Positions 1-54,792 of a DNA stretch of 64,000 nt are shown piece after piece. A program made the position numbers and the translations under genes. The stretch spans positions 896,001 through 960,000 of the forward strand of contig CP000070.1 of NCBI GenBank assembly GCA_000002445.1, given 5' to 3'. This DNA comes from Trypanosoma brucei. Taxonomy: Eukaryota. The first letter of the stretch is position 1. The number at the start of each line of letters is the position of its first letter. A model generated the notes under the pieces. It saw nothing but the letters and a program-made list of their open reading frames with translations. It searched no databases and was not told where the DNA came from.

Positions 1-3000
1 TACGAAGGCTGTCTGACTTCGAGAAGACACCGAGGAACGAATAATACGCACAAGCGCCCCAATGTGGCGAAAAGCTACTTCAAGGGGTCTGGTGAAAAAG
101 GTAAGATCTGCACCGATGAGGGAATTTAAAATTCCAAATTTAAGAAACAGAAATTGGGTAAAGGAAAATAAATGCATCAACGACCATCGTCACGTGAAGC
201 AAAACTCGGTAACCCACGGTTCAGTCAACCGATCTGCATTTGGGTGTGTATGGGGGGGGGGGCGCAGCGGTGCCGTGCTGAATAAATGATAAAATCATGT
301 ACACCTAAATCAACGACTCCTTCCATCTGTATCGGCTCCCACAGATCATATGCCATAAGATTCAATTCTGGAAGTGAAAGTCGGTACATGTACTTTCACA
401 CAAAATTCAGATACTGTGAACATTAGCACATGGTTTATGACATAGTTCAGCCAAGCGAAGGGTATCCCGGGGGGTCGAAGTTGCACACTGGACTTCTTTT
501 CTTTTTCCAAAGCAACAAATTCTCCTAAATGTAACTGCGGATACAATGTCCACAGGCTTGAAATTCCAAACACTAAGTGGGAAATGGCAGTAAACCGTTT
601 CAACGACAACTAAGACCGAACCCCCAGAAAACTTTGGCAGAAAACACAACCACTCGTGAAACAAAGAAAACTTGCAAACACAACGGTAAGCTCCGAAAGT
701 CACCGCAATGTTTATTCATGTTTTCCTGTGAGTTTGAAAACCTTTAAAATAGTGCTGTTGAGGACCTTGTGGAGCCCAAACTCCTGAGAGCGAGTCAGTA
801 GTTAAAAAGGGGCGGAAGTTCAATACTTACACAGACGTCCAACGAATTTTCTATCCCGAAAGCACTAGCAACTGAAGTACAGTGTTATGTGAACGGCGAA
901 AGGGGGGGCGTGAACATGGCTTCCCACCTCTTCGCATCCGAAAATCTCTTGCCACACTCCATCAAGTGGGTTAATTTACGTTTTCGGGTGTAACGACACC
1001 CTCGCCGCACCCTTGTACGCTCCAGCGATCGCCATATCCGACACAACCTCCTTAATTTAGCATTAGCACTACCAGGCGATCCCAAAAGTTAGCCACCAGG
1101 ATTAACATTTCCTCGTTGTTTCTTTGAGCCCATCTTTCCATAACCGTTTAACTCCAACGACTGGGCTCGTTGCTGCTTTGTGTGCTGCGACGAATGTATA
1201 ATGAAACGTCGTAACATAGTCACACAGGTGGGAAATGGCTGGCAACTCACCTGACTAAAAACAAGGGGGCGCCGACAAGTTAAATCGCCAACTGAAAAAA
1301 CAACCGGACCCTACGCCACATCGCAGATACACACACCGGTACTCTTGTTCAGTGCATTTGTATTTCAACAGTGCTATGAAGCCGCTCGGCACGGTCCACA
1401 CAAGGCACCTAAAGGGGGTTCAGATCCTCTTTTACTCACTTAAATATGTTAAATAAGGCCATCCCTAGCATAGATCCGCGACCACAGCACCATGCAATGG
1501 AAATAGCAACCCTATCCCCCACTCATCTTCAAGCATGTGCACCAGGTAAGCTCATTAAACTGCAAAGAACTTCACTGAAACGCGGAACGGTAACACCACA
1601 ACCAGTTCTAATAAAAGAAATGTTCAGAGGCACTTCTCAATCCCCCACCTCACCCTCTCCAGAACCAACCCCTCATACCCACCGACTACGAAAGTGAAAA
1701 GTGGCGAAGCGCCCAAAACTGACACGAGGAGTGGGCAGCACGAAGCTACGGTGAGAAGGATCATAAAAGTCAGGCGGGCAACCACGCGTATCCGCTGGGT
1801 CAATATCTAAAAAAAAAAAAAGAGGTTGGCTGACCAACGGGCAGGACGCACCCTGTGCGACAAACAACCTGCAAAGATGGAAAAAAAAAAATGCGCCCCA
1901 CTTCCGAGCGGCAAACCAACCCAAATTTCCATACTCCAAATCGGTATACCCCTGCCCTCTTCCGACCGACGGAAATGTTTTCCCGACGCCGTTAGCAGAA
2001 ACACCGCGAGTCGAAGGACATGAGGGGGCGAACCGGACCGGAACAGGCGCGGAGTCCCCTTCCTTTATAACGGCCGGGCTTTCCGGGTCCAACTGGAGAA
2101 CACCAGTTTACCAGCGAGGAAATCGCAGAAAAAAGGTGCCAGGATTTTGGTGCTCGTCAGGGCAAGGGAGCTTCTCTCCAGTAGAGGTGCCCCGCTCGCT
2201 ACGTCGGCCATCCGCTGGCCTTACTGACCCGAGTAGTTTCTAGTTGGAAGAGCGGGGCGACGCCATCACCTCTCTCGTGGAGGTGGGCTCGCAGGGGGAC
2301 GCCTTATAAAGCCGTGTGTTTCTGGTTGCTAACGGTTGCTTACTCGTAATAACTGCAAAGCCCCGCCATCTTCCGCTGACCGCAGCAGACTTCTACGAAC
2401 CCACACACACACACACAAACCGCCCTCATTACGGGTATTTTCCGAGGCCTCAGGCGCGGGTGGTGGCACGTGCTGGTGTTGTGGTGGACGGTGCCTCGTT
2501 TTCGGGGGAATTGAGCTGAGAGGACGGAGGATTCGCTGGTGCGCCGTGTGGAGGAGAAAGCTGGTGTTTCCGTTCCGTTTGGGGAAGGCCACTTCGTTAC
2601 ATTGTGGTGGGCTGCACTTCCTACATATTCCCTTGGATAGGGAAAGCTTCCAACGGTTGGAATTTGAGGACGGTGCCCGCTAATTAAGTTAGTCAATTTC
2701 GGATTGGCGAGAGATGGCCTGCAAGAGGCTCCTTCTCCTGGTGGTGCCTTAGTGCTAGATTCGCATAAGGGCTGGTGTTGAGTTGAAAAGTGGGTTCTTC
2801 CGCTCCCTCCACACATTCAGTCGTTGGTCCCGCACTGCGGGAGCTAATAAAGGAATTAGACCTTATGAGAACGGCGGAGCGGGAAGCCGCACTGGGAAAC
2901 GGGGTTGGAATGGTTTCTTCCAAAGTTCTGAGAGCCGACAGAAAAAAGACACCATCGTTGAGGGCGGTTGACCCAACACCGAGAGGCAAAAGACAGAACA

Positions 3001-6000
3001 ACGCACCCCACTTCTTTCGCAAACGTTCCCATCTTCGTGCTACTGATTCGATTCGAGTGGTTTGGGACGTCGTTGAGGGCAAGAGCCCATCGCCTTATCA
3101 AGCGTTTTCACCGTAATGGGGTCCAGCGGTCATTGCCCAACGTGAGAGAAGACAGGGGCCTTGTGCTTCACCAGGGCCACTTATAAACAAGTGTATTAGA
3201 CCGCGGCAACACGGAACCAGGCACGGCGTCTAAATGCACCTGAAAAAAAAAAAAGCGAAATTTACACAGTTTTTTTTTTCTACCCACCACCACCTTGATG
3301 CTTTAAGACTTCCGGTGGTTTAACCCTCTTCCGGGGCCTCAGTTTGTCAAACAGTAGGAAAAGGTCGGAAGGAAAGGTGTATTCCACCATTCGCGTGAGG
3401 TTGCCCGGTGCGGGACGTGTGGCTTTGTACTTATCGACGTGGCGCGTCGGGATATGGGGGGCTTTAAAAAAAAATGAAAAGTATATATATCAAGAGTTGC
3501 CCCCCAAACTTTCGGTAACAGAGGCGTATGAGAGAAGAAAACGTCAGCGCGTAGGATAAAGGAGGGGAAAATATGACAGCAAAAAATATGGAGGGAGGCC
3601 ACTGCAGCGACAGGCATCTTCGTGCGAAGTCCGGAACCTCAACCTCGAATTGCAGAAACAGGATGTCAAAATGTGCCCCAACCCGCGCTCTTTTGCACCG
3701 AAGTCGTTTGGATGACGGATATCGACTCATTGTGGGAATGCCGGCAAAAAAATGGGGCAAAAGGAAATGAAGATAAATTTGAATACTACGATAGTGTCCC
3801 GGAAAAGCTATCATAGCACTCTCAGCTCCGGCACGGCCGTGCAAACATTCATGAACATAAGTCCTCGTGCAACGGATTAGGGTGTGCCGCCCAGTAACTG
3901 ACTGCGTTGCATGGTAGCGTACGTGTCGCGCGTGGCCCGCTATCATGCCCGTAAATTTACATCTTGGCGATTGCAAAAAAAAAAAACGGTCATCAGTACC
4001 ATTACGAAGAATAAGTCCGGCTAAACTGAAGAAGATTTCGAAGATTGGGGCAACGAGCCCGGGAGGTTTTACTAGAAGGGTGCTGGGAGGTATTGTGAGG
4101 GTGTCGGTTAGCATCGGCGGCCGCTGCTCGTGAATAAAATCCTATGCCCAATTCGGCGGAAAAGCAATAACGTGGCGTCGGGTCCTGTCGCATTGTACAT
4201 TCATGGGCAGCGGAGAGTTGACAGAAATTTACATCTGCGGAACGCCACTTCCGTGCCTCCGCCCAGGAAATCGATGCATTGCACAGCGTGGGGATCAGCC
4301 GTGTCGTGTTGGAACAGCATTTTCTCTCCCCGTTGGTCGCTGGGCGCACTCTCGTACACTGCCCGCAGCACTACCCGCGCCAAGGAGCTTTTGGAACCGC
4401 AAGGCGCAGGCGTGGGGGGGGGGGCGCACGCCTTTGACGAAAGTGCAAGGACAAGTCAACACACAAAAAAATATAAAACGAACGCAAAGGCATTTCTTTG
4501 CAAATGGACAATCAGGGGTGAGTAGGGGGCGAAGCTGTTACGCTCGCATGGGAGGGGCTGCGGCCGCACCGGGGAATGGGGCCCAGGCACAGGCTCCAGT
4601 TGAAATTCTTCGCCGAAGTGTCGCGACAGCGGATCCACAAGTTTGGGGGGCACTGGTGCCTCGACAGGTCTAAACATTTTCCACAATAGGGGAAGAGGAC
4701 GTGCCAGTTTGGGCTCAATGGAAGTGGGAAGAAGGGGCCGCCCCTCTGGCGAAGTGACTTCGGGGCCGAGATAGCAACCAGAAACCGGGATTTCAACGCG
4801 CATGAAGGAGCGTTGCGGGTCAGATAGCGCTGTGTTGCTAGGGGATGCGGTATTGGGTGGTCAGTGCGATGAAACCTTCAGCATCAGCAGGCAAAGCTGG
4901 AGATCCCCCTCAGCAATTTGTGAGCCACGCGCAGTTTGAGTGAAAACAGGAAAGGGCGGACCCCAAAGACGGGCGACCAAGGAGAGCACCAAACAGATGA
5001 TTTTGGAGTGCAAAACGGGAGAATAGTTTAGCCTCACAGCTGACTAGGCGTTTTTCAGAAGTTGGAAGTAGTGGGCGAGTATGCTAAGGAAAGCGGTCAT
5101 TACTTTCAACACCCCATCCCTCGCTTACCTTCGAAGCTCGTGTGGTCGAAAGTCGATGACTCGCCCGCTGCCACGCGTTCCAGAGCGTTTGAAGAGTTGG
5201 CAGCTTTGATTTCCATTGGGATGGGGAACTGAAAGGTATCACATCACTTGGCTCAGTGTTAATATCTGGCGGTATTACACCTGGTGTGTGTGTGCGTGGA
5301 TGTGAATGTGAAGGGGGGGGGGACCGTCAGGGGAAGAAGTTGCTTTCTTAGCCACGTAAGGGGATCTTAGTACCCCTCCCCGAAGACAAGAAGTTTGTAC
5401 GGGCATGAAGGGCTCTCTTACATGCAACGAGTACTAAGGAGGAAGTTAATTGCGGGGCTTGGAACTGCCTTCGCAATATCTCGAAAAAGTAATGCTGCAC
5501 CCAGTTTAGGGACTCCAGGGACCCAACACCTCATGCAAGTACATGCGTCTCTGTAGTCTGCCTCCTCCCTCGAGCTTTTCTTAGCTGCACCACTCCCTTT
5601 TTTTTAAAAAATCCCGAAACAAAAAAAAAGTAAAGGGATTAAATGTGATTAGCAAGGAAAATAAATGAATGCTTGTTCGGTCGTATTCAATTGAGCTCCA
5701 CAGCAGAAATCACATTGGGACGGCAACGGCGACACCGACCAGCAAGAACGACAACCAAATCCTACCACCTTCGGTCGAGGTATCGGCAGGTTGGATGAAA
5801 TAAACATCTCGAGCAAACACATTGCTGAACCCCCTTCTGTTAATGGTCATCCACGCAAAAGGAGAGCAGGAGAAAGGACAAACAAATGCGTCTGGAGGGA
5901 ACACACTAATGATACGAACCAATGTTCCAAGCGACTAACATCAGCGTTGTTTCTACTCCCTCCTCCTTCCTTCAGCCAAATGTACATGAAACGTAAGCAA

Positions 6001-6879
6001 AGTTGCCAGTTTAGGTGGAATTTATAATTAAACCACCTTGGCATCATGGGCTACCAAACTGTGCGGGTTGAAAAGGAATTGTCTTCAAGGTTTAAAAAAA
6101 AAAAAGATATTGGCATTAGCGGGGGAGCCGATGCGCCACGTCTGCTCTGCGGGCGCCTCCTGCCATGAAACCCCGTTCGGACCCAACACGATGCATCGGT
6201 ACCGCAAGAGCGGAACTGATCCCATCCCCTCCCACGGCAACCGGTGCAATTCCCGCTTAATTCGCCTCCCTGTGCCGTGCCCTACGGTTCGTACAATCCA
6301 GCTGTTCTACGCGGGGAAATAAGTATTCAGACCCGCAGCTCCTTACCCAAACAAAACAGAGAAATGAGAGAGGCGTGACGCGCGATACGCACAAAAAAAA
6401 GAGCTGCAATAATGAGGCAGATAGAAGTTTACAGCCCCACGATGATGTGCAAAAAGAAATGCGAAAGGTAATTGAACTCCATCGCTGTTGCACGCGGGCG
6501 TGCATGTGAATCAAAGTGACATGATCTGGTCAAATTGCCATGACATGCGGGAAAAGCAAACACCGGACGGGTTAATAGGAACACGTAGAACAAATTAACG
6601 GAACAAAAGAGAGCACCGCGACAAAAAACGAGATGATCACATATTTAGTCGACAGGAGTACGGAGCACCAAAAATCACCGCCTCCAATGCGAGGGTGCAC
6701 ATAAGTAAATTAAAACACAATACCGGCCGTTCACTTCCATGAACAAAAGCAAAATGAAAAGAAAAAAGGCAACATTAGGAGTGTCGCCCCCTTGTCCGTA
6801 ATCCGGTGAGAGCGAACTTGGCCCTGGTTTGTGAAACGCAGGCATCGGCAACGGCTGCCCAGTTCATTTCGAGCAACAT

Positions 6880-9360
6880 TTACTTGTATAATCCCCGCAC
6901 GAAATTTTTAACCCCACTCCGAAGTGATTTGGCCGCCTTCCGAACGATTCCTCGTGAATTTCCATTTTCCGACAGCACTGGGTACGTGTAGGGTTCTAAA
7001 GCAACACCGGTCGTTTGAAACTTGAGTATGGCATTCTCTTGTAAAAGGAACGGGGCATCGAGTGCGCGGCAGAAGTCCTTGTCGAACTCGATCACCGCAA
7101 GATGTTCACTATTCTGTTCGGCATTTGTATCCTCCTCCCCGGACGTGTCCTGCTCAAACGTGAGCTGTTTCACGGCACATATAAATTCATCGTGGTACTC
7201 GCCCTCATTGTCTTCGGCAGATATGATGAAAGTCAGCGCATCACTTGAGGTTACGGGAATACCGTCCTCTCGCAATCGGGGTACGACCAAACTGTCCCAT
7301 GCCTTACGCACAGCCTGCTCGATCTCAGAACACGGAACACCTACGGGAATGCCCTTTGCTATAAGGGCGCATCCCCAGTTCTCCACCGGCACAGGGCGTT
7401 TGAGAAAGGCTTGGCTCATAGATGGAAAGTGTATGTCGATGTTGCGCCCGAGCAACAGTTCAATATTCCGAAACTTGCTCTTGTCTTCGAACGCGTTTTC
7501 ATAACGGCGCTGAGTTGCAATCACCATATTGGATGCAGCCGCCTTTAGGCCGCAAATACCCCGCAAAATGTTACTGTGCATGGCGGCCGAGTTGGTGTAA
7601 AGACGCGCAATGGTGTCGCCGTTGTAAACATACAGTTCCGAGAGGGCCCGACCTATGGCGGCGGGGTACAGTGACGGGTTGCACGCCTCCTGCCACGTGG
7701 CCACGGAGTCCCTTCGAGGGGAACCGCTTAACTGCAACATTGCTAAGGTGGTTTCCAGAGGTCTCTCGCCTTCCTGCTCTTCTAGCGGGGGTAGTCGGTT
7801 CTGATCGACGAAGCTGTCGGGCTCCAACCTGAGATAGGCTAACATATTTAATGTTGATTGGAAACAGGTGTAAAAACACCCAATGTTTGTTCGATCCAAT
7901 GAGTCGGCGCAGTTCACTCGCACAAAGCTGGTTTGGCAGGAGTTCCGCGTAACGCCTCCATCAACGCCTATGGTTCCAGCGGTAACCAGTTCGTCTGTAG
8001 AAAATGTGGCGAGCAGGGTTGTCCAAAAGGTTGTAGTGGTGCGGTCAATACCCTGTTCCTTTAACATGTTGAGCCAGTCGACGTGCACGAGATCAAGTTG
8101 AGACCCCGGAAACGCCTGCTGCAGCGCCGCTTGTGATTTCGTGACGGCTTCTGTAAAGTGTTTTGTCAGAGCTTCCTCACTGCTATGATGACTTTGACGA
8201 AGCATATTGACGCAGCGCAACCTGGGGCCCCTGCCGGTGAGCTGTTCTCCCGAGTCGTACCTCATGATGGCAACCAGTTGAGTGAAGACGAAACTGAAGT
8301 ACGAATCGCACCCTCGGAGAACTTCTTCCTTATTTTGACTGAACATCATTGCTGGCTCCGAGATAGTCTTGCTGATTCGTGTTGACCAATGTACGGGAAC
8401 CGTGCCCCTAAGTATTGTGTGTTTGGCAAACTGAATAGGGCCATTGCCACCGCCCTGTCTCCACATCACATACTCGTACACGTGGTCGTTTCCCACCGCA
8501 TTGACTGCGTTCAATCCTCTACCGAAGTACCGGGGGCCTGGATTGAGGTTATTTTGTCTCCCGCACAGCAACACATGAAGGATTGAGCCGTCTTTAAGCA
8601 AAACCTCCTTCTCCGCAGCGAACCCGCGGAGCAACACCGAGCAACAACTTTCAACGCCTGCTGTTATAAACGGTTTTCGTAGCTGCCTTGACCAGTCACT
8701 GTGAAACTGTGGGCCGTTACCGTCTTTTGATGAAACGAACGGAAACGGCCGCCGTAAGTCGCAGTCATCCGAATAGTAATAACCCCCTTCATGGCTATAG
8801 GTCTCAAACTCCTTCAACCTATTTCTATCCCCCGACGTCAGGTACAGGGGTTCCGAACCGGGAATTCCAAACGAAATCCACTCCGTGCCACCAACCCGGA
8901 GGATTGCGCCACCAAATGGCAGCACCGCAGCCTCCTCAACTTTTGTAGCAACAAGGAAATACATCCTGTCGAGACGTAGGCATCCGAACAACGCCGCAAA
9001 CTCCACAAAGGACTCGAATGGACCACACTGTCTGTATGCGTCTCTCAAATTTGGAAACTCTCTATGGCAAAGCTTGTCGTAGCGCTGAATTTCTCCCCTT
9101 TCATCGACCACCAGCGGCACGCAATATGAACCGGCAGACCACTTTTGCCACTCCACCTCGTTTCCCGTTGCGGTTTCAGGTTGTTTGGCCACTGGTGACG
9201 AGGGCTTTTCAAAAAACATTAGCAGTTCCGGCTCTTTGGGAGGAGGCGGTGGCAACGGGCGAGCAAGAACTACAAAAAGTATACTTGTTCCGTCCTTTAC
9301 AGCCACGGCACACCGCTTGCGCGGGCTCTTCTCCACGTACATTTTTTCAGCCCTATTCAA
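6880..9360 (-). CDS. SAC-domain phosphoinositide phosphatase, Fig4/Sac3-like (826 aa)
   Basis: Long minus-strand ORF. It carries SAC catalytic motif CX5R(T/S) as 'RVNCADSLDRTN', plus 'RYFGRGLN' and 'LRGTVPVHWS' blocks that resemble the Sac1/Fig4 blocks RYFSRG and RGSIPVFWSQ. There is no C-terminal TM segment. The size and the catalytic Cys position (about residue 480) fit Fig4 better than Sac1. Confidence 0.7.
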   Translation of the reverse strand: MNRAEKMYVEKSPRKRCAVAVKDGTSILFVVLARPLPPPPPKEPELLMFFEKPSSPVAKQPETATGNEVEWQKWSAGSYCVPLVVDERGEIQRYDKLCHREFPNLRDAYRQCGPFESFVEFAALFGCLRLDRMYFLVATKVEEAAVLPFGGAILRVGGTEWISFGIPGSEPLYLTSGDRNRLKEFETYSHEGGYYYSDDCDLRRPFPFVSSKDGNGPQFHSDWSRQLRKPFITAGVESCCSVLLRGFAAEKEVLLKDGSILHVLLCGRQNNLNPGPRYFGRGLNAVNAVGNDHVYEYVMWRQGGGNGPIQFAKHTILRGTVPVHWSTRISKTISEPAMMFSQNKEEVLRGCDSYFSFVFTQLVAIMRYDSGEQLTGRGPRLRCVNMLRQSHHSSEEALTKHFTEAVTKSQAALQQAFPGSQLDLVHVDWLNMLKEQGIDRTTTTFWTTLLATFSTDELVTAGTIGVDGGVTRNSCQTSFVRVNCADSLDRTNIGCFYTCFQSTLNMLAYLRLEPDSFVDQNRLPPLEEQEGERPLETTLAMLQLSGSPRRDSVATWQEACNPSLYPAAIGRALSELYVYNGDTIARLYTNSAAMHSNILRGICGLKAAASNMVIATQRRYENAFEDKSKFRNIELLLGRNIDIHFPSMSQAFLKRPVPVENWGCALIAKGIPVGVPCSEIEQAVRKAWDSLVVPRLREDGIPVTSSDALTFIISAEDNEGEYHDEFICAVKQLTFEQDTSGEEDTNAEQNSEHLAVIEFDKDFCRALDAPFLLQENAILKFQTTGVALEPYTYPVLSENGNSRGIVRKAAKSLRSGVKNFVRGLYK

Positions 9361-13726: not shown

Positions 13727-13995
13727 GTTTTCTCGTTTGACTCTGCTATTATTTTTCTTCCCCTCTTTCTCCTCCCCCCTTTACACCCCAAAGGACGAGA
13801 ACCGTAGAGGTGAGTGGATTGTTTAAGAGCGGTGAGCGGAAAAAAACAAACACAAGAAATGTCTTCTCCCAAATCATGAAGAAAAAAAAAAGGTGAAAGT
13901 AAAACAATGAAGGGAAGTCGCTTTCCCATTTTCAGGGAAACGATGTTAATAAGTGAAAGCATTTCCAAGTGGCCTCACACTCCGCAAACACACAG

Positions 13996-14050
13996 GCACA
14001 AATATATATATATATATATATATATGCGCATACATATATATATATCTATA
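13996..14050. repeat. (TA)n microsatellite in the 3' flank of the Vac14-like gene
   Basis: 'atatatatatatatatatatatatgcgcatacatatatatatatc'. Confidence 0.9.
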
Positions 14051-14068
14051 TTTGTATGTATCTGTACT

Positions 14069-16144
14069 TTACAAAATGTCGGCATCCCCCATCTGCTGCA
14101 GAAAGAATCTCCGCTCGAACTCTGCAGTGCATCTCTGTGCCTCTTTGCTCTGATTCAAAAGTTGCTCCCAAATGGCGTTGTTGCTGCCCTGTACAGCGTT
14201 TGCTGAATCCTCTCTCTCGAGTCGCGCTAAGGATGGAATTGTTTTGATACGCCGGTATAGAATCATGTATTGCGGAGAGCACTGAGGTAATATCAGCTGC
14301 ATTGCAAAAAGTGTTCTAACAAGCGGAAGACATTTGGATGGCTCCATCAACGCTATTCGCACGTATGAAAGGGCGGGGGTTTCGATAAGCCGGACCAGGC
14401 GCTCCAGTTGCACGAGTGTGTTAGCCGACATCTCACAGGATCCCATGAAACGGACGAGTTGATAAGCGTGCTCGTAGGCACGGGATAAGAAGCAAAGCGA
14501 AAGCGCCGACACGGTGTTATAGCAAAAACAGTTATATAAGCCTAGAAACGCCTCGCGAGCGCGCGCGTCATCGACGCCCCGGTGGAGGACTTCGCGAAGC
14601 GGGAGGAGCTCCCTTGAGGTTAAGAGCATAGTGTTGAGCGTGATTACGAACTTCTCCACGAAACGCTTATCTTTGTGCGAGGAAACAACGTCAGCAAGCT
14701 TGAGACAGAGCTTTTCACATTGACCCAAGTCCTCCTCTTGATACCGGAGTTGCAATTGCTTTATGATTGTTGGCACTTTTGGAAGTAGCACATCCGCCTT
14801 CGTATGGATCAAGTCCACAAGACGAGCTATGAAGTGGTCAAAATGTACCTCACCTGATATCAGACACAATACTTCAATACACTTGTGCACAACGTGGAGG
14901 GAGCGGTCGCACAGCAGCGCTACGGTTGTATCAAAACTCGCATCGAAGCAACACTCCAGGACGTCTGGAGCCGCGTGCAAGACAAGCACTATCCACTCCA
15001 ATGCGGCGACGCGCACCTCCTCGACACTACGATCCGCGAGCTGTTCCAGTACACCCTTCAGGACGGCTTCGTACGGAATAGCTTTTGTGTCGTCACGTGG
15101 TGCCGCAATGAACTGAGTAATCTTCTGGTTAACCTTCTGAGCCGCAAGGCGTGTCTCAAGATCCTTAGACCCTAATTGTGATAGACACGCTTTTACAACG
15201 CCATCAGTGAGATCCAGAAGCTCCAATGCCCCGACGGTGTGCAGCTCTGATATCCACTCCAGCGCACTTTTCTTTGCCAGAGCCGCATTTGCATCCTGCA
15301 CACATTCACATGCTATGGAAACGAGTTTCGCCACCCGTACGTCCACGTGTCGAGTGAACGCATCTTTTGTCTTACCAAGACATTTTTGGAGCAACGACAA
15401 AGCTTCTGAACCGTTACATGTTCCCGAGAGAAGCAACAGGGGTTTTAGCAGCTGCCATAACTGAATAATAAAGTCATCGCCGGGGAGATTAAGAACGTGG
15501 TAAATCCACTCGAGGCACCATTCGACCACAGCTGAGTGAGTGCTGCCTTCATCGCCTGTCGCGCAACAGAAGGGTACCAGGGTTTCGTTGATGAAGGTCA
15601 CAAAAAGCTCCGTCTTGAATGAAAAGTTATCATTCCCCGTAACGAGCTCACGAATGGCGGACGATACCTCCCTTGCGAGCAATACCACACGTTTATCCCC
15701 CTCGCTTATCCCGCAAGCCACTCCACGAAACGTGCGAAGGAAGCAGAAGTTGAGAAGCTGTTGCTGCAGGTTGCGCACAAGTGCATGAGCAGCCTCAAAA
15801 GCTGCCATCCTCACGGACACATCCACATCTGCAACGCTGTCGAATACAATTGTTGCAAGGTCCTCAACCAGCCTCTGTTCATGATTTCTAGGAGGCAGTG
15901 ACGCTATAATCGCCCTAATCGCAATCATGCCACCCCTACGGTACGTCGGGGAAGTGGTCCGAAGTAAACTTCTTTCAATTTCATGCAATTCCTTCGTGGT
16001 TATTTCATATGCCTCTGTGATAGAGCTACTTCGGAATACCGTTGACACCTTTTGTGAGACTTCCTTTGCACCCTTCTGCCGCAGCTCTACCTTCGCGTCT
16101 ACCAAAAGCTTGAACGACCGCGCGGGGACGAAGGACTCCCCCAT
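14069..16144 (-). CDS. HEAT-repeat protein, Vac14-like (scaffold of the PIKfyve/Fab1-Fig4 complex), 691 aa
   Basis: The N-terminal 250 aa show Vac14-like repeat spacing. Blocks 'LRQKGAKEVSQKV', 'YRRGGMIAIRAI', 'DVDVSVRMAAFEAAHALV' and 'DKRVVLLAREVSSAIRELV' are comparable to the Vac14 blocks LYEKRKAAALELEKLV, ARKGGLIGLAA, DQNDQVRYYACESLYNI and NSVRGAAELLDRLIKDIV. The whole protein is an alpha-solenoid. Confidence 0.5.
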   Translation of the reverse strand: MGESFVPARSFKLLVDAKVELRQKGAKEVSQKVSTVFRSSSITEAYEITTKELHEIERSLLRTTSPTYRRGGMIAIRAIIASLPPRNHEQRLVEDLATIVFDSVADVDVSVRMAAFEAAHALVRNLQQQLLNFCFLRTFRGVACGISEGDKRVVLLAREVSSAIRELVTGNDNFSFKTELFVTFINETLVPFCCATGDEGSTHSAVVEWCLEWIYHVLNLPGDDFIIQLWQLLKPLLLLSGTCNGSEALSLLQKCLGKTKDAFTRHVDVRVAKLVSIACECVQDANAALAKKSALEWISELHTVGALELLDLTDGVVKACLSQLGSKDLETRLAAQKVNQKITQFIAAPRDDTKAIPYEAVLKGVLEQLADRSVEEVRVAALEWIVLVLHAAPDVLECCFDASFDTTVALLCDRSLHVVHKCIEVLCLISGEVHFDHFIARLVDLIHTKADVLLPKVPTIIKQLQLRYQEEDLGQCEKLCLKLADVVSSHKDKRFVEKFVITLNTMLLTSRELLPLREVLHRGVDDARAREAFLGLYNCFCYNTVSALSLCFLSRAYEHAYQLVRFMGSCEMSANTLVQLERLVRLIETPALSYVRIALMEPSKCLPLVRTLFAMQLILPQCSPQYMILYRRIKTIPSLARLEREDSANAVQGSNNAIWEQLLNQSKEAQRCTAEFERRFFLQQMGDADIL

Positions 16145-16195
16145 CGTGTGCTTCTAAAAGTGCCTTCGCCAAGTCCCCGTTTAAACAAAAAAGAA

Positions 16196-16242
16196 ATATA
16201 TATATATATATATATAAGATGTCTAATTTCAAGCATGAACGA

Positions 16243-16274: not shown

Positions 16275-17362
16275 CAAGAACTGTAACAAGAAGCATTAAG
16301 ACATGCACTGGCACGTGGCATCGAGGACGCAGAGGGAAAGTAAAAGGAAAGGAAAAATGATACCGGTAGTGAAAGGGAAAAATAGAATTGCAAACATGTA
16401 CTCGTGCCAACCCGGCCCCCACCTTCCTTTTTCGTTTTAAATATTTGCTCGTGGTTGCACTTCACCATTTAGAGGGCATTAAGGAACGAGACCACGTCGC
16501 CTGTGGTTGAAAAAAGCATCACAACCCGAAACCACAGCTCATCTGACAGCGTTATTAAGGGAGAAAAGTGACACGATCTCTCCCCAACATTACAAACCGA
16601 ACGGGATTGTGATGACTGACACGCAAAACATGGGGGTTCACCTCTACAACGAAAGTCGCACGACCCACCACCAGTACAAACCGATACAACGGTTGCTGCT
16701 TTACATTCATTTTACGAAGACTAGCAACCAGTAGACCACATCACGCACCGCGAAGTTCAGGTAAAATCGTCATACTTTTTAAATACCATAGACAAACACA
16801 GGCACATATATATACAATACCGCCCCAAACTGTCATTGACTGATGCTTTATCCATCCCTTCAGCAGCACAAAGCGTTAAGTCGCTGCCGCAGATATCCGC
16901 TGTAAGCGTTACATTGCTTTCACCACTACGTTTCAGGGACGAGCCGCTCTTAGAGTATATGAGGAGTGGTAGAAAACTATCCAATGGTAATGAGCAAACA
17001 TGGAGTAACATAAACCCAGTGATGGACGCAACAACCACACAGCATATCCAACATGTGGTGCCGAAGGGCAAAAGAAGCGAGCAAAGATAGCAATACATGT
17101 GAAGAGACAAAGGAAAAACTAAGCGCAGACACAAGTATACATGAAGATATGCCCCGTACGTACCACGCGAAAAAGCTCCCTTCCGTCCCTTCTCCTTTTT
17201 TTTTCTTCTTTGTGTAGTGAAAAAAATAATTAAGCGGACCCAAGCCTTTGTAAGGAGGGCTCGTGTGTATTGAGGTGTGTGTGTGTGTGGGGGGGGGAGG
17301 AACGAAAGGAAAGGAAAGCAACAGCGGCACGAACACCCCGCCGCTTTTGTTAGCGCATTAGC

Positions 17363-18365: not shown

Positions 18366-18984
18366 TATGTATGTTACAATTTAACACCTAAAATATCTCA
18401 ACGCTTTTATCATCGCACAACACGACTGGTCCCAGCCTACCGAGCCACTTGTTAAGGGTGCTATGCTGCTTGCTCATACGTAAACCAACTTCAAAAAAAA
18501 ATAAAACAAAATCATCCATCTCCACGATGCACCGGCTCTAAAAGCATCAGGACCCGAAAGCATTTGAACAATTCCCCCCTCTGCAAATTTAACCGAAGCA
18601 CAGCCTTTACGCTCCATTTCAAATGATGGCACGACTCCAAAAGAAAAAGAAGCACCCGCCACTTGCATTCCCCTGCCAATATAACAAAGCTTCATAATTC
18701 GTACTGCACCAATTACCGCCGTTGAGGTAAATCTCCAATATCCTCATTTGCCGCGTTCACGCATTTTGAAGAACCAACAACCAAAACCCATGAAGAATTC
18801 ATATACGCGGATAAGCATGGGTGGAAGAGCAACTAATATATGATACCGTGAACTAACGATAAATAAATCGCACACATATCGTCTCTGCATAAAGGAAGAA
18901 ATGAAATGAAATTTGTACTGAAGATGAAGAATTAAAGCAGATATAAAAACATGAACAGGATCCCAAGCGACCTACACACAAAGG

Positions 18985-19006: not shown

Positions 19007-20672
19007 CATGTGCAAAAGCACGCGCATATATACACAAATCACTTCCCGTATTGAAGGTTCAGGTGTGAGATGGTATAAATATATGTGGATGCATGCGGAT
19101 TCGTGTGTGAGTCGCGAAGATGAGAGGAAGATCTCAGTTGGCCATCGAAAGAACAAGGCTTAAAAACAAAAAAAAAAGATGGTACTCGTTCCCTTCCCAT
19201 TGGAGTGGTGCGAATGCTTCACCCCTCTACGGTTATACGTACATGTGGTCTCTTCACTATTGTTCCCTCACGACACCTTCATCAGCATTCACCTTCTTCT
19301 TCTTGTCAAATCATATTCTTTTTCTTTCGTTTCATTTCCTTTAAAAATGCTTTATTTTATTTGTGTCAATTCAATTCATTACATATTTTTCTCCTTCTTG
19401 TTCCTGCTTTTTTTTAAATTAATTTTCCCCCTTGCGTTCATCGCTTTTCCAACCTCTCCCCCCACTGAACTAACGACCCAACTTCACATAGACGTGGCAT
19501 GTTGATATAATACGTGGTGGTCGGCGAACAAACAAATAATCACAAGCACAATAATCTTCTTCTTTCCCTAAAAGTCAACAAACAGTAAAGTAAACAAACA
19601 AATAATTATATGATTATATATAATTATATATAGAACCAGAAAGAAGGGAAAGATATAAAATGAAATAGAGGCAGGGGCTTGGGCGACGGGGGATGGGGTG
19701 GGGAAGCTTAAAATAAAAAAACAAATAGAAGAAGAGAAATAAAGAGATAGAAGGGGAGAGGGGGGGGGCAAGCGATGCTAGATACAAGGTACACACCTCT
19801 CACTTCCGTACACACCTTCACTGGCACCGACACCTGTACAAAATAGCAGGAAAGCACATACGGAGCGAGTACGTGGTGTGAACAAAAAAAAAAGAAGAGG
19901 AAAAAGAACAAAACAAAATAAAAACATTAAATACAGCTGAAGAAAGGATACACTGCCCCCTCCCCCCGCCCCCATGCTCCTCGAAAGTGAAAAACAAAAC
20001 AAAACAAAGCGCTGATTCCCACACCTTCACGGGTGAACATATATGTTACTGAAATGAGGAAAAACCAGATTGGGGAATGGGAGGAAGGATATACGTAGAG
20101 GGATTATGTGTCCATTTGTTATGGTTTTGTTGTGTTTCACTTCCCGCTGCGCAGGTAACATAGCCCCCATTTCACCTCCCATCCTTCGTTATTCTTTTAT
20201 TTTTCTTTCCTCTATTTCCTCTCGTTTCTGCCTCCTCGTTTCTTTTCCTTTTGTTTTGCTTTTAACATGACGAAAACAAAGAGAAGAATTAATGTCACCA
20301 TCATTTACCCTGTAGGTCAGCCAAAATCCTCATCTTCCACTACTGTCCACGCACAACCACATACATACGCTTAAACTATGTGTCTTCCTTTCTCCACCTT
20401 TTCCTCTTTTTCTTGGCAAACACTTTCGTTCTGTTTTTTCCCTTTCTTTTGTTTTTTCGTTTTCTTCCTAAAATGTCTTTGGGCTTCGAAGTCAACATAA
20501 CAAATACTTCCTCAATGCGCCTTCTCTTCTCTTTATTTCTTTTTTTGTTTCTTAAAGCATTTATTTTTGTATGGGGCTTTAGTATGATGGCTACGCAATA
20601 CCGCTTCATTAGCTTTATTTTTCTCAAGCATCTTACGCCAGCATCCGGTGAAGACACAGTAAAAAAAAAAAG

Positions 20673-20673
<1 letters not shown>

Positions 20674-20701
<28 letters not shown>
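20674..20701. repeat. (TA)n microsatellite
   Basis: 'tatatatatatatatatatatatatata', about 150 bp downstream (in the transcript sense) of the C2-repeat gene stop. Confidence 0.9.
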
Positions 20702-20703
<2 letters not shown>

Positions 20704-20850
20704 TCGCGCACATCTGCCATTGCTGTTGAACTCGCGCTCGGTCAAATGTCACTTCCCTTTTCAACAAAGTGCCGGGGCGTGAGGAAGAGGGAATCTCCCA
20801 CATATATTCCTTACCTCTATATACATCCTTTTGAGGTTCAGAAACCCCTT

Positions 20851-23800
20851 TTAGAAACCTCGCCCAACGGATGATTCGCGGTTTGTTGAAGCGCGTCGGG
20901 AAGAATCACGGTTGCCCGAAGGGTGCCCGCTACTCAATCTCGAATCGCGGGATCGCATCTCTAGTTGCTTGATAGTTTCGGTGCGATTGCGGAATGTGGT
21001 GCGCTTTTCGAGTGGGATGTGGTCCTCATTGCTGGCGTTCTTGGTTGGATGCCACGGCTGCCAGTTGCCGGAGGTGAGACTCGCCCCGGGGCTGATTGAA
21101 AAGTTGTGCTCATCCAATCTCTCACTTGGCCGTCGGACAGAACTTCGCGGTGACCTGTTGCGGGTGTTGGCGGCGGCACCGACATCTGAACTTTCAGCCT
21201 CTGAGGTGGAGGGTTTCCCTTCGGCAGCCCGGGTTCGGCCCGCACTGTCGCCGCGGCCACGTACATTTTCTGCGGAGTCCCGCTGTCCGCTGAGTCTACC
21301 CTTCTTCGTTGCTGCCTCGGGTGAAACCGGTTTTTTCCCCGATCCGGAACGCTTCTCGGAGCCGCCTTGAGATGCTGCCTTCTTCTTTGCGCTACGCTCA
21401 TCTCCTTTGCCAATTGGCGGCTTCCGATCTGGGCTCGGTGTCGGTGGTACGTCGAGTTTCACTGTCCGCTGCTCCTTCCCACCTTCCTTCTCAAAGCGCC
21501 CCTCAGAGCCCTTCGAAGACAATCGTTCACCCCCTTCCTCATTACGCTTCGAGAGCGGCTGCTCCTCTGTGGGTTCCTCCGCCTTGGGCTCATCGAGCTC
21601 CTCCAGATCCTCCTCCGCCAATTCCTTTGGAGAACGGGTATATTCATCCTCCTTCACAGGATACCGTTCATCCGCACCAGCAAGTCCCTGGGGTTCATCA
21701 AGCTCCTCCAAACTCTCCTCTTCTGCAGTGCGCTTTGAAAGAGGCCCATCATCTCCATACCCCTCCTCATCGGCCGACTTACCCGCTGCCTCCGTGGGAG
21801 TGCGCTTTTCTTTGCTTTTTTTGGGGGATTTGCGACTTTTCTCCGATCCTTCTTTAGACTTGCCTGTTGTTTCTCTGGGTGATCGCTTCTCCTTTCCCTC
21901 TTTGGGGGACTTGCGGCTCTTTTCCGACTCTTCCTTTGACTTGCCTGTTGTTTCTCTGGGTGATCGCTTCTCCTTTCCCTCTTTCGGGGACTTGCGGCTC
22001 TTTTCCGATTCCTTTGGGGAACGCTTCTTCTTGCGCTCTCCTCCACTGGGATGTTGTTCGTCCTCAGCAGCGTGGCCCTGAGGATCATCGAGTTCCTCGA
22101 GATCTTCATCTTCCTCATTGCGCTTTGAGAGTGGCTTATCCTGTGCGGAGCGGTCGTCCTCTGCGCTCTTAGCCGCAGATTCATTGAACCTATCCGATCC
22201 CCTTTCTTCTTCACTGCGCTTTGAGAGTGGTCTCTCCTGTGCAGAACGGTCGTCCTCCGCGCTCTTCACCTGCTGCTCATCGAGTTCCTCGAGATCTTCA
22301 TTTTCCTCATTGCGCTTTGAAAGTGGCTTATCCTGTGCGGACCGGTCGTCCTCTGCGCTCTTAGCCGCAGATTCATTGAACCTATCCGATCCCCTTTCTT
22401 CTTCACTGCGCTTTGAGAGTGGTCTCTCCTTGGGGGAGCGTCCATCCTCTGCGCTCTTCACCTGTTGCTCATCGAGCTCGTCAAGATATCTGCCCCCCTC
22501 TTCTTCATTACGCTTCGGAGAAGTGCTCTTTGGTGACCGCGATGTCTGCCTGGCAGTGGAACCTTTGCTGTTACTTTTCCTTGAGCTCCTGGGGGAGCGC
22601 TTCTGCGACCGTTGCTTCGAAGGTGATTTTTCCCTTGCGGACCGCCCCTTCTCCGCACTCTTCTCGCGAGAGTCACTTGCATATTCTGAACCATCTTCGT
22701 TCCTCCTTGAAGAGAGCTGGTCACTCCTCATTTCACTCTGTCGTTTGCTCCCTCCCCGGCCAGATCGTCCGCTCGCGCCTCTCCTGGGACTGGAGCCTTC
22801 CTCCTCCTTTTCATTACTTAGCTCCCTCTTGGACTCACCGTCATCCTCCTCAGTGGATCGGATGAGCTTGTAGGAGACAAGGATTTCTCCCCTCTTCACG
22901 GTTTCATTTTGCGGGTCGTGCATTTTTACGGTCAAGGCATCACTGTCGTTGAGCAACTCAAAGCGCCCACTGCTCACAATTCTCTTGTCGTCAAGAACTT
23001 GAACGTCAATGAAGGCTTGCCCACCGTCCATCTCAATGAAGCGCACCTCTTGATTCCAAGTGATGACATGCGCTAAGCCGTCAGCCTCTACCACAGCTGG
23101 CGCAGAGTATGTTGAACCTTCCATATCACAAGCAAAGACGGAAACCTGTCCCTGCGCCAATGGTTCCCCTTCCCGGTCTGTCAGGTTGAGTCCACGAACA
23201 ACCGTCAAGAACAATGATTCACGTGGTCCTGATCCATCTCTCTGTCCAGTACGGTCATTTGACATTTGTGTACCCTGTCTATCTTCCTCATTACTCTTCT
23301 GAATGGTTGCATATGATATGATTCCCCACTCGACCGCGATCTCACCCCAGAGTACATCCTCTTTGACCTTGGATTCGACGAGCAAAACTGCAGAACCCTT
23401 GTGGTAAAGCTTCTCGAAGTCAAGTGGAACAGCACCGACCACAATGAGTTCTTCGTCTTCTTCGTTTTCGACCTCATCCTTGGTAACACAAATGAGAACG
23501 TGACCAAGTTTCTTGGGTGTAATGAGTTGCAGCATCTGCGAACGGTCCTGGGGCAAGTAGGTACATCCTCCCTTTCCGTAATATGGCGAGGACGACATGG
23601 CTCCCTCACTGTTGAATGTGTAGAGACCTGATTCTGAGCAGTTGTCGTCCGTGTCGCGAAGCAGACACAGCACACCACCGTTGTATGGGAGGGCGCCATT
23701 ATCTGTATATTGGAACAAACGGTGGACAACAAAGTTACAGTTAATGGGGCCGCCCTCAAGGTTTTGCTTCAAGGCCGCACCATCTGCATCGTCCTCCCCG

Positions 23801-39497: not shown

Positions 39498-39533
<36 letters not shown>

Positions 39534-39602
39534 CGAGTGAAGGATATGCGTGGACGCAGAACCTTGAAAGGAGAGTAATATATATATATATATATATATA
39601 TA
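39480..39602. repeat. Two (TA)n / (TATG)n microsatellite blocks
   Basis: 'tatatatatatatatatatatatgtatgtatgtacg' and 'tatatatatatatatatatatatac'. Confidence 0.85.
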
Positions 39603-53136: not shown

Positions 53137-53150
53137 CGTTCCCGTCTTCG

Positions 53151-53220
53151 TATATATATATATATATATATATATATCTTATTTTTCGTTCACTCACCCT
53201 CACCCTCACCCTCACCCCTC
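53151..53220. repeat. (TA)n followed by a (CACCCT)4 hexanucleotide repeat
   Basis: 'tatatatatatatatatatatatatatc...cactcaccctcaccctcaccctcacccc', directly upstream of the start codon of the 351-aa gene. Confidence 0.85.

Positions 53221-54759: not shown

Positions 54760-54792
<33 letters not shown>

What the first reader, a model, noticed from the sequence alone, without database searches (positions are those of the whole stretch)
1..6879. About 6.9 kb gene desert downstream of the last gene of the unit, with G-runs and alternating A/T homopolymers
No ORF longer than 216 aa occurs on either strand, and the ORFs present translate to low-complexity nonsense. That is long for a trypanosomatid inter-CDS region. 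The segment contains G9-G11 runs (about 255, 4417, 5317). It contains repeated A10-13 runs on the plus strand (1808, 1878, 3243, 3968, 6090), two of them immediately followed by T9-10 runs (3243-3285, 5600-5630). It has a GC-rich block at 2000-3300 holding three 'cttataaa' boxes (2058, 2304, 3181). Candidate explanations are a very long 3'UTR, a degenerate retroelement or pseudogene remnant, an unannotated ncRNA locus, or the approach to a transcription termination or strand-switch region.
Basis: seen in the sequence. Interest (0 to 1): 0.5.

Follow-up and report, generated by a model that had tools for sequence, protein, structure and literature searches.

The report
Spacer between two trypanosome transcription units
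The 6.9 kb gene-free stretch is the spacer on Trypanosoma brucei chromosome 7 where one long multi-gene transcription unit ends and the next one, on the same strand, begins; published maps already show this boundary, so it is real but ordinary.

Summary
The window is T. brucei TREU927 chromosome 7, 896,001-960,000. The desert is real. It measures 7,174 bp between Tb927.7.3490 (SAC/synaptojanin-like) and Tb927.7.3470 (p22), whose ATG lies 295 bp left of the window. It has no Pfam domain in six frames, no codon-usage signal, no Rfam or tRNA match, and no similarity to L1Tc, RHS or trans-sialidase proteins. Its one annotated ORF, Tb927.7.3480, is a chance-length orphan.

The homopolymers are not enriched over ordinary intergenic DNA. 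The G- and A-runs are pyrimidine tracts on the coding strand. CTTATAAA occurs at chance frequency. What is unusual is the length and a coding-like GC of 0.50, against 0.41 elsewhere.

Kolev et al. 2010 (Table S14) end one Pol II unit at Tb927.7.3490 and start an 'Internal' unit at Tb927.7.3470. Ashby et al. 2022 place a Bdf3 peak summit at 895,089-895,489.

Comparative loci show SAC ending its unit elsewhere; in Leishmania donovani it lies 2.4 kb from telomeric repeats. p22 starts a unit on another chromosome or contig.

Best reading: a head-to-tail boundary, with termination followed by dispersed re-initiation, at a junction of two ancestral blocks seen only in the T. brucei group. Already known; low interest.

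The parts
1..6879 (-). Non-coding spacer between two head-to-tail Pol II transcription units. It equals chr7 896,001-902,879 and continues 295 bp to the left of the window, up to the p22 ATG at chr7 895,705.
   Evidence: No coding signal. GC 0.503 against 0.41 for other gaps. Kolev Table S14 places a unit end and an 'Internal' unit start on its two sides. Coordinates come from Tb927.7.3480 = 899,464-900,114.
6880..9342 (-). Tb927.7.3490, a SAC/Syja_N phosphoinositide phosphatase. It is the last ORF of the unit Tb927.7.3880 -> Tb927.7.3490.
3464..4114 (-). Tb927.7.3480, an annotated 216-aa 'T. brucei spp.-specific' ORF. Most likely a chance ORF, not a gene.
   Evidence: Codon-usage score is in the non-coding range. 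Its length is within chance expectation. The only hit among 1.84 billion cluster representatives is its own cluster. ORF length differs between subspecies: 216, 222 and 279 aa. It is listed among ORFs without a transcript of their own. It contains the T12 tract at 3975-3986.
6745..6769 (-). First coding-strand polypyrimidine tract after the SAC stop codon (25 nt, next AG at 6735). Candidate signal that sets a short SAC 3'UTR.
   Evidence: Kolev reports a median of 142 nt between a poly(A) site and the downstream splice site. The role here is inferred, not shown.
1..2382 (-). Promoter-proximal part of the spacer. The coding (-) strand is G+T-rich here, up to 0.626 at 1383-1882, with T13 and T11 runs at 1809 and 1881. 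Inferred zone of dispersed sense initiation for the p22 unit.
   Evidence: Skew profile. Wedel 2017 reports G/T-run 10-mers enriched on the coding strand of start regions. The Bdf3 summit lies 0.5-0.9 kb further left. The assignment is inferred.
2383..5382 (+). GC-rich core (GC 0.49-0.57) in which the + strand is G-rich. It carries G11 at 4414, G10 at 5313 and T10 at 3270. Possibly the antisense arm of a bidirectional start region and/or the termination zone.
   Evidence: Kolev reports sense plus antisense 5'-triphosphate reads at all putative start sites, internal ones included. Low-confidence inference, because + strand G-runs also occur in ordinary gaps.
3243..3279 (+). A12, a 15-nt spacer, then T10. 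This fits the 'poly(dA) upstream / poly(dT) downstream' pattern reported at T. brucei SNS-seq replication origins.
   Evidence: No mapped origin could be checked.
252..262 (+). G11 run, which is C11 on the coding strand. Its length differs from T. equiperdum, as do the runs at 4414 and 5313.

Best explanation
The desert is the spacer of a head-to-tail boundary between two RNA polymerase II polycistronic transcription units on T. brucei chromosome 7. Three statements describe it.

1. Shown by published data. The unit Tb927.7.3880 -> Tb927.7.3490, which contains every gene of this window, ends at the SAC gene. A new unit of the 'Internal' type starts with p22 (Tb927.7.3470). Start-site chromatin (Bdf3) peaks at the p22 end.

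2. Inferred mechanism. Polymerases arriving from the SAC gene polyadenylate that mRNA within a few hundred bases and terminate inside the spacer. By analogy with other boundaries, this part is expected to carry H3.V, H4.V and base J. Dispersed, intrinsically bidirectional initiation then occurs in open, acetylated H2A.Z chromatin over the left 2-3 kb, where the coding strand is G/T-rich, and drives the p22 unit. The spacer encodes no protein and no recognisable structured RNA. Its A- and G-runs on the + strand are T- and C-tracts of the coding strand, the usual trypanosome processing signals.

3. Inferred evolutionary origin. The spacer is a junction between the end of one ancestral unit and the start of another. 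These lie on different chromosomes or contigs in every other trypanosomatid sampled. Each side brought its own long GC-rich boundary spacer.
For: Identity and coordinates:
- The window is 99.4% identical to a T. equiperdum contig.
- ORF 3464-4114 is exactly Tb927.7.3480 of TREU927, located at chr7 899,464-900,114.

Published unit map:
- Kolev 2010 Table S14 lists 'Tb927.7.3880 -> Tb927.7.3490, -, Divergent' and 'Tb927.7.3470 -> Tb927.7.3250, -, Internal'.
- The paper's text states that 5'-triphosphate RNA reads are enriched at such internal sites, which coincide with variant and modified histone marks and are bidirectional.

Independent chromatin data:
- Ashby 2022 report a Bdf3 CUT&RUN summit window at 895,089-895,489.
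- Its tag counts equal those at 711,377 and 1,020,283, the two divergent start regions in Kolev's table.

No stable transcript:
- No novel transcript lies between 888,471 and 912,285.
- Tb927.7.3480 is listed as having no transcript of its own.

No coding or RNA content.

Strand polarity matches the unit:
- 33 pyrimidine tracts lie on the coding strand against 14 on the other.
- The coding strand is G+T-rich next to p22, as reported for start regions.

Comparative loci:
- The block Vac14-MPC-482aa-Grx-SAC is conserved, but what follows SAC differs everywhere.
- T. vivax has opposite-strand genes after 5.5 kb.
- T. cruzi has a trans-sialidase-like sequence and RHS.
- T. theileri has trans-sialidases.
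- L. donovani has telomeric GGTTAG arrays starting 2.4 kb after the SAC stop.
- p22 lies on other contigs or chromosomes. It is preceded by a 3.9 kb gap in T. cruzi, with L1Tc on the opposite strand, so it is the first gene of its strand run there. In T. vivax it follows a 4.3 kb gap, the largest in that locus, with a same-strand cathepsin array upstream. L. martiniquensis has no called genes in the 10 kb upstream.
- In every species these boundary spacers are long and GC-richer than the ordinary gaps.
Against: - Termination inside the spacer is inferred, not shown. No H3.V, H4.V, base J or nascent-RNA data for this locus could be retrieved. Kolev's 'Internal' class is also compatible with extra initiation inside a unit that is read through.
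- The Bdf3 summit lies inside the p22 coding sequence, not in the desert, so only the left part of the desert is implicated directly.
- The long G-runs lie on the non-coding strand, opposite to the coding-strand G-runs described for start regions. Similar runs occur in ordinary gaps.
- TREU927 and T. equiperdum differ at 1.45 substitutions per kb in the desert. CDS shows 0.77 per kb, and about 0.64 per kb remains in other gaps after assembly gaps (N runs) are removed. There is thus no sign of sequence constraint.
- The cause of the coding-like GC content is unexplained.
- T. congolense, the closest outgroup, could not be examined.
Confidence: 0.82

Rival explanations
1. Most of the desert is a very long 3'UTR of the SAC gene Tb927.7.3490, possibly with alternative poly(A) sites, and Tb927.7.3480 lies inside it.
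For: [quoted passage not shown] Tb927.7.3480 is in that list. The coding strand carries many pyrimidine tracts, as UTRs do.
Against: The first strong pyrimidine tract with an AG lies only 111-145 nt after the stop codon, and seven more follow within 1.3 kb. In trypanosomes these normally force polyadenylation. A span of 7.2 kb exceeds the reported maximum. GC is 0.50 and (TA)n repeats are absent, unlike the other UTR or intergenic DNA here. The published map ends the unit at Tb927.7.3490 and starts another at p22. The stored parts of Kolev's poly(A) tables have no row for this gene, so the point is not directly tested.
Confidence: 0.1
2. The DNA is a decayed relic that now happens to sit at the boundary. 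Candidates are a degenerate ingi/L1Tc-type element (DIRE), an RHS or trans-sialidase pseudogene, or another dead gene inherited from an ancestral chromosome end.
For: GC is coding-like. The orthologous position carries a trans-sialidase-like sequence and RHS in T. cruzi and trans-sialidases in T. theileri. L1Tc sits upstream of p22 in T. cruzi. A weak RVT_1 match (E 6e-4, below the cut-off) lies upstream of p22 in L. martiniquensis.
Against: No Pfam family at E<=1 in any of six frames, apart from one meaningless DUF hit. No tblastn hit better than E 0.1 to L1Tc APE, RT or RNase H, RHS, trans-sialidase or the neighbouring genes of other species. No frame reaches the coding range of the codon-usage score: the maximum is -0.002, against a true-frame mean of 0.143. 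There are no internal repeats and no TTAGGG arrays. Very old decay cannot be excluded. This rival concerns origin, not present function.
Confidence: 0.15
3. The desert hosts a DNA replication origin or ORC binding site. This could hold in addition to, or instead of, a transcription boundary role.
For: A12 followed 15 nt later by T10 at 3243-3279 matches the poly(dA)-upstream / poly(dT)-downstream pattern. That pattern is seen at 37% of SNS-seq origins against 9% of intergenic controls. G-runs lie nearby. Unit boundaries are known ORC1/CDC6 sites in T. brucei, as stated in the abstract of PMC6344857 listed.
Against: It is a single motif instance. 9% of random intergenic sites also show the pattern. 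The second A/T pair is in the opposite order. No origin list containing this locus could be retrieved.
Confidence: 0.15
4. The desert is an unannotated non-coding RNA locus (lncRNA or a small RNA cluster).
For: It is a long gene-free interval with many coding-strand splice and poly(A) signals. T. brucei has many lncRNAs (own knowledge).
Against: No Rfam match at gathering score or at E<=1, and no tRNA. Kolev's list of 1,114 novel trans-spliced, polyadenylated transcripts has none in the interval, although four lie elsewhere in this window. That data set covers procyclic forms only.
Confidence: 0.07

Closest known systems
Head-to-tail ('internal', non-strand-switch) Pol II unit boundaries of T. 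brucei (Siegel et al. 2009; Kolev et al. 2010)
   Same: Flanking genes are on the same strand. The locus itself is listed as an 'Internal' unit start in Kolev's Table S14. A start-site chromatin reader (Bdf3) peaks there. There is no tRNA, snRNA or rRNA gene and no defined promoter motif.
   Different: Nothing essential differs. This spacer is longer and GC-richer than the ordinary gaps around it, and its termination marks were not checked here.
Dispersed GT-rich Pol II promoters at divergent strand-switch regions (Wedel et al. 2017)
   Same: The coding strand next to the first gene (p22) is G+T-rich with long T-runs. The region is broad and motif-less. Initiation is reported as bidirectional.
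   Different: There is no divergent partner unit. The long G-runs lie on the non-coding strand. The coding-strand G-run enrichment described for start regions is not seen.
GC-rich strand-switch domains of T. cruzi (Obado et al. 2007)
   Same: A long GC-rich, gene-poor spacer between directional gene clusters at a synteny break. The orthologous flanks in T. cruzi are GC-rich and adjoin L1Tc, RHS and trans-sialidase-like sequence.
   Different: Those domains consist of recognisable degenerate retroelements and act as centromeres. Here no retroelement similarity was found, and the T. brucei chr7 centromere maps to Tb927.7.6860-6870.
DIRE (degenerate ingi/L1Tc-related elements) at trypanosomatid synteny breaks
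   Same: Location at a synteny break. The sequence is full of stop codons and has coding-like GC.
   Different: There is no detectable APE, RT or RNase H similarity by Pfam or tblastn. The signature first 77-79 bp was not tested.
SNS-seq replication origins of T. brucei (Stanojcic et al. 2026)
   Same: One A12/T10 pair lies in the reported orientation inside an intergenic region.
   Different: It is only a sequence resemblance at one point. No origin mapping for this locus was available.

Membership tests
Head-to-tail Pol II transcription-unit boundary / internal start region (T. brucei) | Flanking protein-coding genes lie on the same strand, with no intervening Pol III or Pol I gene. | tested here: met
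   SAC at 6880-9342 (-). p22 on the same strand 295 bp left of the window. No tRNA or Rfam match.
Head-to-tail Pol II transcription-unit boundary / internal start region (T. brucei) | Experimental evidence of initiation: 5'-triphosphate RNA enrichment, or listing as the start of a unit. | tested here: met
   Published table looked up: Kolev 2010 Table S14 gives 'Tb927.7.3470 -> Tb927.7.3250, -, Internal' and 'Tb927.7.3880 -> Tb927.7.3490'. Method described.
Head-to-tail Pol II transcription-unit boundary / internal start region (T. brucei) | Start-site chromatin: H2A.Z/H2B.V, H4K10ac, bromodomain factors. | tested here: met
   Bdf3 CUT&RUN summit window at chr7 895,089-895,489, with counts equal to those at divergent start regions. 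H2A.Z and H4K10ac tracks were not available.
Head-to-tail Pol II transcription-unit boundary / internal start region (T. brucei) | Termination marks (H3.V, H4.V, base J) upstream of the start marks. | not testable with these tools
   Only general statements were retrieved: base J at 10 of 10 head-to-tail regions on chr10, and termination sites enriched in J, H3V and H4V. Nothing is specific to this locus.
Head-to-tail Pol II transcription-unit boundary / internal start region (T. brucei) | G/T-rich coding strand with long G or T runs in the 5' part of the start region. | tested here: inconclusive
   The coding strand is G+T-rich at 1-2382, peaking at 0.626, with T13 and T11 runs. All long G-runs are on the other strand and also occur in ordinary gaps.
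Degenerate ingi/L1Tc-type retroelement (DIRE) | Residual similarity to the APE, RT or RNase H domains. | tested here: not met
   Six-frame Pfam scan found none. tblastn with T. cruzi L1Tc APE, RT and RNase H gave a best E of 0.34.
Degenerate ingi/L1Tc-type retroelement (DIRE) | Conserved 77-79 bp 5' signature (Pr77) and a poly(A) tail with target-site duplication. | not tested
Pseudogene of a conserved protein-coding gene | Frame-local codon bias, or homology to a known protein. | tested here: not met
   Maximum codon-usage score is -0.002, against a true-frame 5th percentile of 0.016. No homology. The concatenated-ORF database search failed its own control and is disregarded.
Known structured RNA family (Rfam) or tRNA | Covariance-model match. 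| tested here: not met
   No match at gathering score, none at E<=1, and no tRNA.
T. brucei centromere | AT-rich tandem repeat array at the mapped topoisomerase-II site. | tested here: not met
   No tandem arrays. The chr7 centromere is mapped to Tb927.7.6860-6870.
Chromosome-fusion scar with interstitial telomeric repeats | TTAGGG/CCCTAA arrays. | tested here: not met
   Two isolated hexamers, the same density as in the rest of the window, and no dimers even with 2 mismatches. L. donovani does have arrays 2.4 kb after SAC.
SNS-seq replication origin | Poly(dA) of 8 or more upstream and poly(dT) of 8 or more downstream of the centre. | tested here: met
   A12 at 3243 and T10 at 3270. This feature is weakly specific, being present at 9% of controls.
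SNS-seq replication origin | Mapped nascent-strand peak. | not testable with these tools
   The held supplements contain no origin list.

The most novel reading that the evidence does not exclude
The boundary arose when the terminal part of one ancestral unit was joined head-to-tail to the start of an unrelated unit. In Leishmania donovani the first unit's last gene lies 2.4 kb from telomeric repeats, and in T. vivax it faces opposite-strand genes. The second unit is headed by p22, which in T. cruzi is the first gene of its strand run after a 3.9 kb GC-rich gap with L1Tc on the opposite strand. On this reading, both a terminator spacer and a promoter spacer survived the rearrangement as portable, sequence-unconserved but composition-conserved (long, GC-rich) modules. 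The 7.2 kb is roughly their sum; the corresponding sums are 3.9 + 3.9 kb in T. cruzi and 5.5 + 4.3 kb in T. vivax. If so, boundary function in trypanosomes would travel with the local DNA rather than depend on a strand switch or chromosomal position. GC-richness would then be a general, so far unexplained, hallmark of unit boundaries.
Probability: 0.45. Interest if true: 0.35.

Novelty: already known. Interest (0 to 1): 0.18.

Why it matters
It matters little beyond correct annotation. The locus is a textbook example of a same-strand boundary between polycistronic units, mapped in 2010 and again in 2022.

Useful by-products:
- Tb927.7.3480 should be regarded as a chance ORF.
- The striking homopolymers are ordinary coding-strand pyrimidine tracts.
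- The boundary coincides with a junction of two synteny blocks seen only in the T. brucei group among the species sampled. The long GC-rich spacers on both ancestral sides are conserved as a property, not as sequence. This is a small, testable pointer to what defines unit boundaries.

Tried and rejected
It was repeated with X-masked translations and found nothing.
- blastn and tblastn of the desert against the SAC-downstream and p22-upstream spacers of T. vivax, T. cruzi, T. theileri and Leishmania found no similarity.
- tblastn with L1Tc, RHS, trans-sialidase and neighbouring genes found nothing.
- The codon-usage scan found nothing.
- Divergence between TREU927 and T. equiperdum first seemed to show strong conservation of the desert. 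The high 'intergenic' rate turned out to come from N-filled assembly gaps, so no constraint is seen.
- Look-up of Tb927.7.3480 in the contig index: not on record.
- A concatenated-ORF query to the protein database returned nothing. It also missed Tb927.7.3480 itself, so the search is uninformative.
- Supplements of Staneva 2021 and Kim 2021 do not mention these genes. Siegel 2010 supplements are not held. Siegel 2009 and Cordon-Obras 2022 are not held. Stanojcic 2026 supplements hold no origin list.
- Centromere idea rejected from Obado 2007.
- Interstitial telomere repeats sought and not found.
- CTTATAAA 'boxes' are at chance frequency.
Full report
**Identity of the window.** All long ORFs lie on the - strand. 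The ORF at 6880-9342 (-) encodes an 820-aa SAC/Syja_N protein whose exact sequence occurs on a T. equiperdum contig. That contig is 99.4% identical to the window over 19.4 kb. The 216-aa ORF at 3464-4114 (-) is exactly AAZ12412.1, Tb927.7.3480 of T. brucei brucei TREU927. Two published tables place it at chr7 899,464-900,114. Window position x therefore equals chr7 896,000 + x. The SAC gene is Tb927.7.3490. The next gene downstream on the same strand is p22/MAM33, Tb927.7.3470, at 894,923-895,705, so its ATG lies 295 bp left of the window. The inter-CDS gap is 7,174 bp.

**Checking the observation.** The desert is real. No ORF exceeds 216 aa and the longest stop-free stretch is 225 codons. That length is reached in 9% of composition-matched random sequences.
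- Runs of 8 or more occur at 1.9 per kb, within the 0-6 per kb range of the other gaps.
- Six of the seven G/C runs in the window are G on the + strand, and three of them lie in ordinary gaps.
- A-runs outnumber T-runs on the + strand everywhere.

On the coding (-) strand these runs are C- and T-tracts. The coding strand of the desert carries 33 pyrimidine tracts against 14 on the other strand. The second 'A then T' pair is really T8 then A9. CTTATAAA occurs twice in 64 kb against 1.99 expected. What does stand out is length, GC 0.503 (other gaps 0.41, CDS 0.518) and the lack of (TA)n repeats.

**What it is not.**
- X-masked six-frame translations hit no Pfam family.
- A codon-usage log-odds scan trained on the window's genes gives a maximum of -0.002 in any frame. 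True frames average 0.143, with a 5th percentile of 0.016. The Tb927.7.3480 ORF scores -0.05 to -0.06.
- Tb927.7.3480 has no relative among 1.84 billion cluster representatives except its own cluster. Its ORF length differs between subspecies at 216, 222 and 279 aa.
- T. cruzi L1Tc APE, RT and RNase H, RHS, T. theileri trans-sialidases and the neighbouring genes of other species give no tblastn hit better than E 0.1.
- There are no Rfam matches at gathering score or at E<=1, no tRNAs, no tandem repeats beyond (CA)8, and no dispersed repeats other than low-complexity families.
- TREU927 and T. equiperdum differ by 10 substitutions in the desert (1.45 per kb), against 0.77 per kb in CDS. An apparent excess in the other gaps was due to N-filled assembly gaps; three real substitutions remain in 4.7 kb. 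Nothing suggests constraint. The G- and A-runs vary in length between the two.

**What published maps say.** Kolev et al. 2010 (PMC2936537) built putative Pol II units from 5'-triphosphate RNA-seq. They state that enrichment occurred at all sites marked by variant and modified histones, including 'internal sites within transcription units', and that all such sites show sense and antisense reads.
- Their Table S14 lists 'Tb927.7.3880 -> Tb927.7.3490, -, Divergent' followed by 'Tb927.7.3470 -> Tb927.7.3250, -, Internal'.
- Their Table S2 lists Tb927.7.3480 among ORFs without a transcript of their own. The text warns that such ORFs are often part of a neighbour's UTR.
- Their Table S7 has no novel transcript between 888,471 and 912,285.

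Independently, Ashby et al. 2022 (PMC9241505) list a Bdf3 CUT&RUN summit window at chr7 895,089-895,489. Its counts match those at 711,377 and 1,020,283. Those three chr7 sites coincide with the unit starts at Tb927.7.2730/2740, Tb927.7.3470 and Tb927.7.3880/3890 in Kolev's table. Bdf3 is a start-site reader.

**Comparative context.** The block Vac14-MPC-482aa-glutaredoxin-SAC is conserved in T. vivax, T. cruzi, T. theileri, T. grayi and L. donovani. What follows SAC differs in each:

| Species | What follows SAC |
|---|---|
| T. vivax | 5.5 kb gap, then opposite-strand genes |
| T. cruzi | 3.9 kb gap, then a trans-sialidase-like sequence and RHS |
| T. theileri | trans-sialidases |
| T. grayi | the contig ends |
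| L. donovani | telomeric GGTTAG arrays and about 100-bp telomere-associated repeats, starting 2.4 kb after the stop codon |

p22 orthologues lie on other contigs or chromosomes in all of these species.
- In T. cruzi p22 is the first gene of its strand run, after a 3.9 kb gap with an L1Tc on the opposite strand.
- In T. vivax it follows a 4.3 kb gap.
- In L. martiniquensis no gene is called in the 10 kb upstream.

In every species the SAC-downstream and p22-upstream spacers are long and GC-richer than the ordinary gaps of the same locus. They share no sequence similarity with each other or with the T. brucei desert. No interstitial telomeric repeats remain in the T. brucei desert.

**Mechanism.**
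- Shown: the desert separates two published Pol II units on the same strand, and start-site chromatin peaks at its p22 end.
- Inferred, SAC mRNA end: the SAC mRNA probably ends within a few hundred bases, because a 25-nt pyrimidine tract with an AG lies 111-145 nt after the stop and several more follow.
- Inferred, termination: polymerases terminate in the right or central part. Termination sites in T. brucei generally carry base J, H3.V and H4.V.
- Inferred, initiation: dispersed initiation occurs over the left 2-3 kb, where the coding strand is G+T-rich with T13 and T11 runs.
- Weak point: the + strand G-rich core at 2383-5382 could be the antisense arm of a bidirectional start region. Similar G-runs occur in ordinary gaps.

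**Rivals.**
- A 3'UTR covering part of the gap is not excluded, but a UTR spanning all 7.2 kb is unlikely.
- A decayed retroelement or pseudogene origin finds no support, although extreme decay cannot be ruled out.
- One A12/T10 pair fits the replication-origin pattern of Stanojcic et al. 2026, but no mapping data were available.
- The chr7 centromere lies elsewhere.

**Verdict.** The feature is real but already explained. It is a head-to-tail transcription-unit boundary with an internal Pol II start region, mapped in 2010 and 2022. The modest additions here are as follows:
- It coincides with a junction of two synteny blocks seen only in the T. brucei group among the species sampled.
- Long GC-rich spacers flank the orthologous unit end and unit start in other trypanosomes.
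- Tb927.7.3480 is best regarded as a chance ORF.

Noticed in passing
L006 14942-22538 (L. donovani RHLC01000026.1): Telomeric GGTTAG hexamer arrays interspersed with repeats of about 96-114 bp begin only 2.4 kb after the SAC stop codon. The SAC gene is thus the last gene before a telomere in L. donovani. The chain of long - strand ORFs there is an artefact of the repeats.
   Followed up: yes
L003/L004 16426-17596 (+) (T. cruzi): A trans-sialidase-like sequence lies on the + strand downstream of SAC, 28% identical over about 410 aa to T. theileri trans-sialidases (E 1e-24 to 1e-28). The annotation calls a 227-aa ORF on the opposite strand at the same place, which is probably spurious.
   Followed up: partly
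L010 5882-7264 (+) (L. martiniquensis, upstream of p22): An ORF with a weak reverse-transcriptase match (RVT_1, E 6e-4, below Pfam's cut-off) sits inside 10 kb with no called genes. It may be a degenerate retroelement, but tblastn with T. cruzi L1Tc found nothing.
   Followed up: partly
window 21577-22853 (inside ORF 20851-24576, -): The 1,241-aa ORF contains tandem 81-nt and 96/192-nt repeats, strong AT skew and no Pfam domain. It is a repetitive protein of unknown family.
   Followed up: no
window 16285-16976, 18383-18884, 50794-51703, 53387-53928 (all -): Four 'novel transcripts' of Kolev et al. 2010 (Tb7.NT.34, 35, 36, 37) map to gaps of this window that have no long ORF.
   Followed up: no
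window 33347-37092: This is the second-largest gap (3.7 kb). It is the opposite of the desert in composition: GC 0.377, 17 homopolymer runs, (TA)n repeats and long purine-rich low-complexity stretches. It looks like a typical long UTR or intergenic region.
   Followed up: no
window 13995-14060, 16189-16217, 20663-20711, 25120-25160, 33900-33950, 39498-39611, 53147-53185, 54748-54800: (TA)n microsatellites of 20-30 bp recur in 10 of the 17 ordinary gaps, including most of those longer than 1 kb, often just downstream of a CDS. They are absent from the desert.
   Followed up: partly
window 252, 1809, 3242, 4413, 5313: All indels between TREU927 and T. equiperdum in the desert are length changes of the G- and A-runs.
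   Followed up: yes
window 14069-16144 (-) and 6880-9342 (-): Vac14 (with its Fig4-binding domain) and a SAC-domain phosphatase lie three genes apart in the same unit in all trypanosomatids sampled. This is conserved linkage of two likely partners of the PI(3,5)P2 pathway.
   Followed up: no
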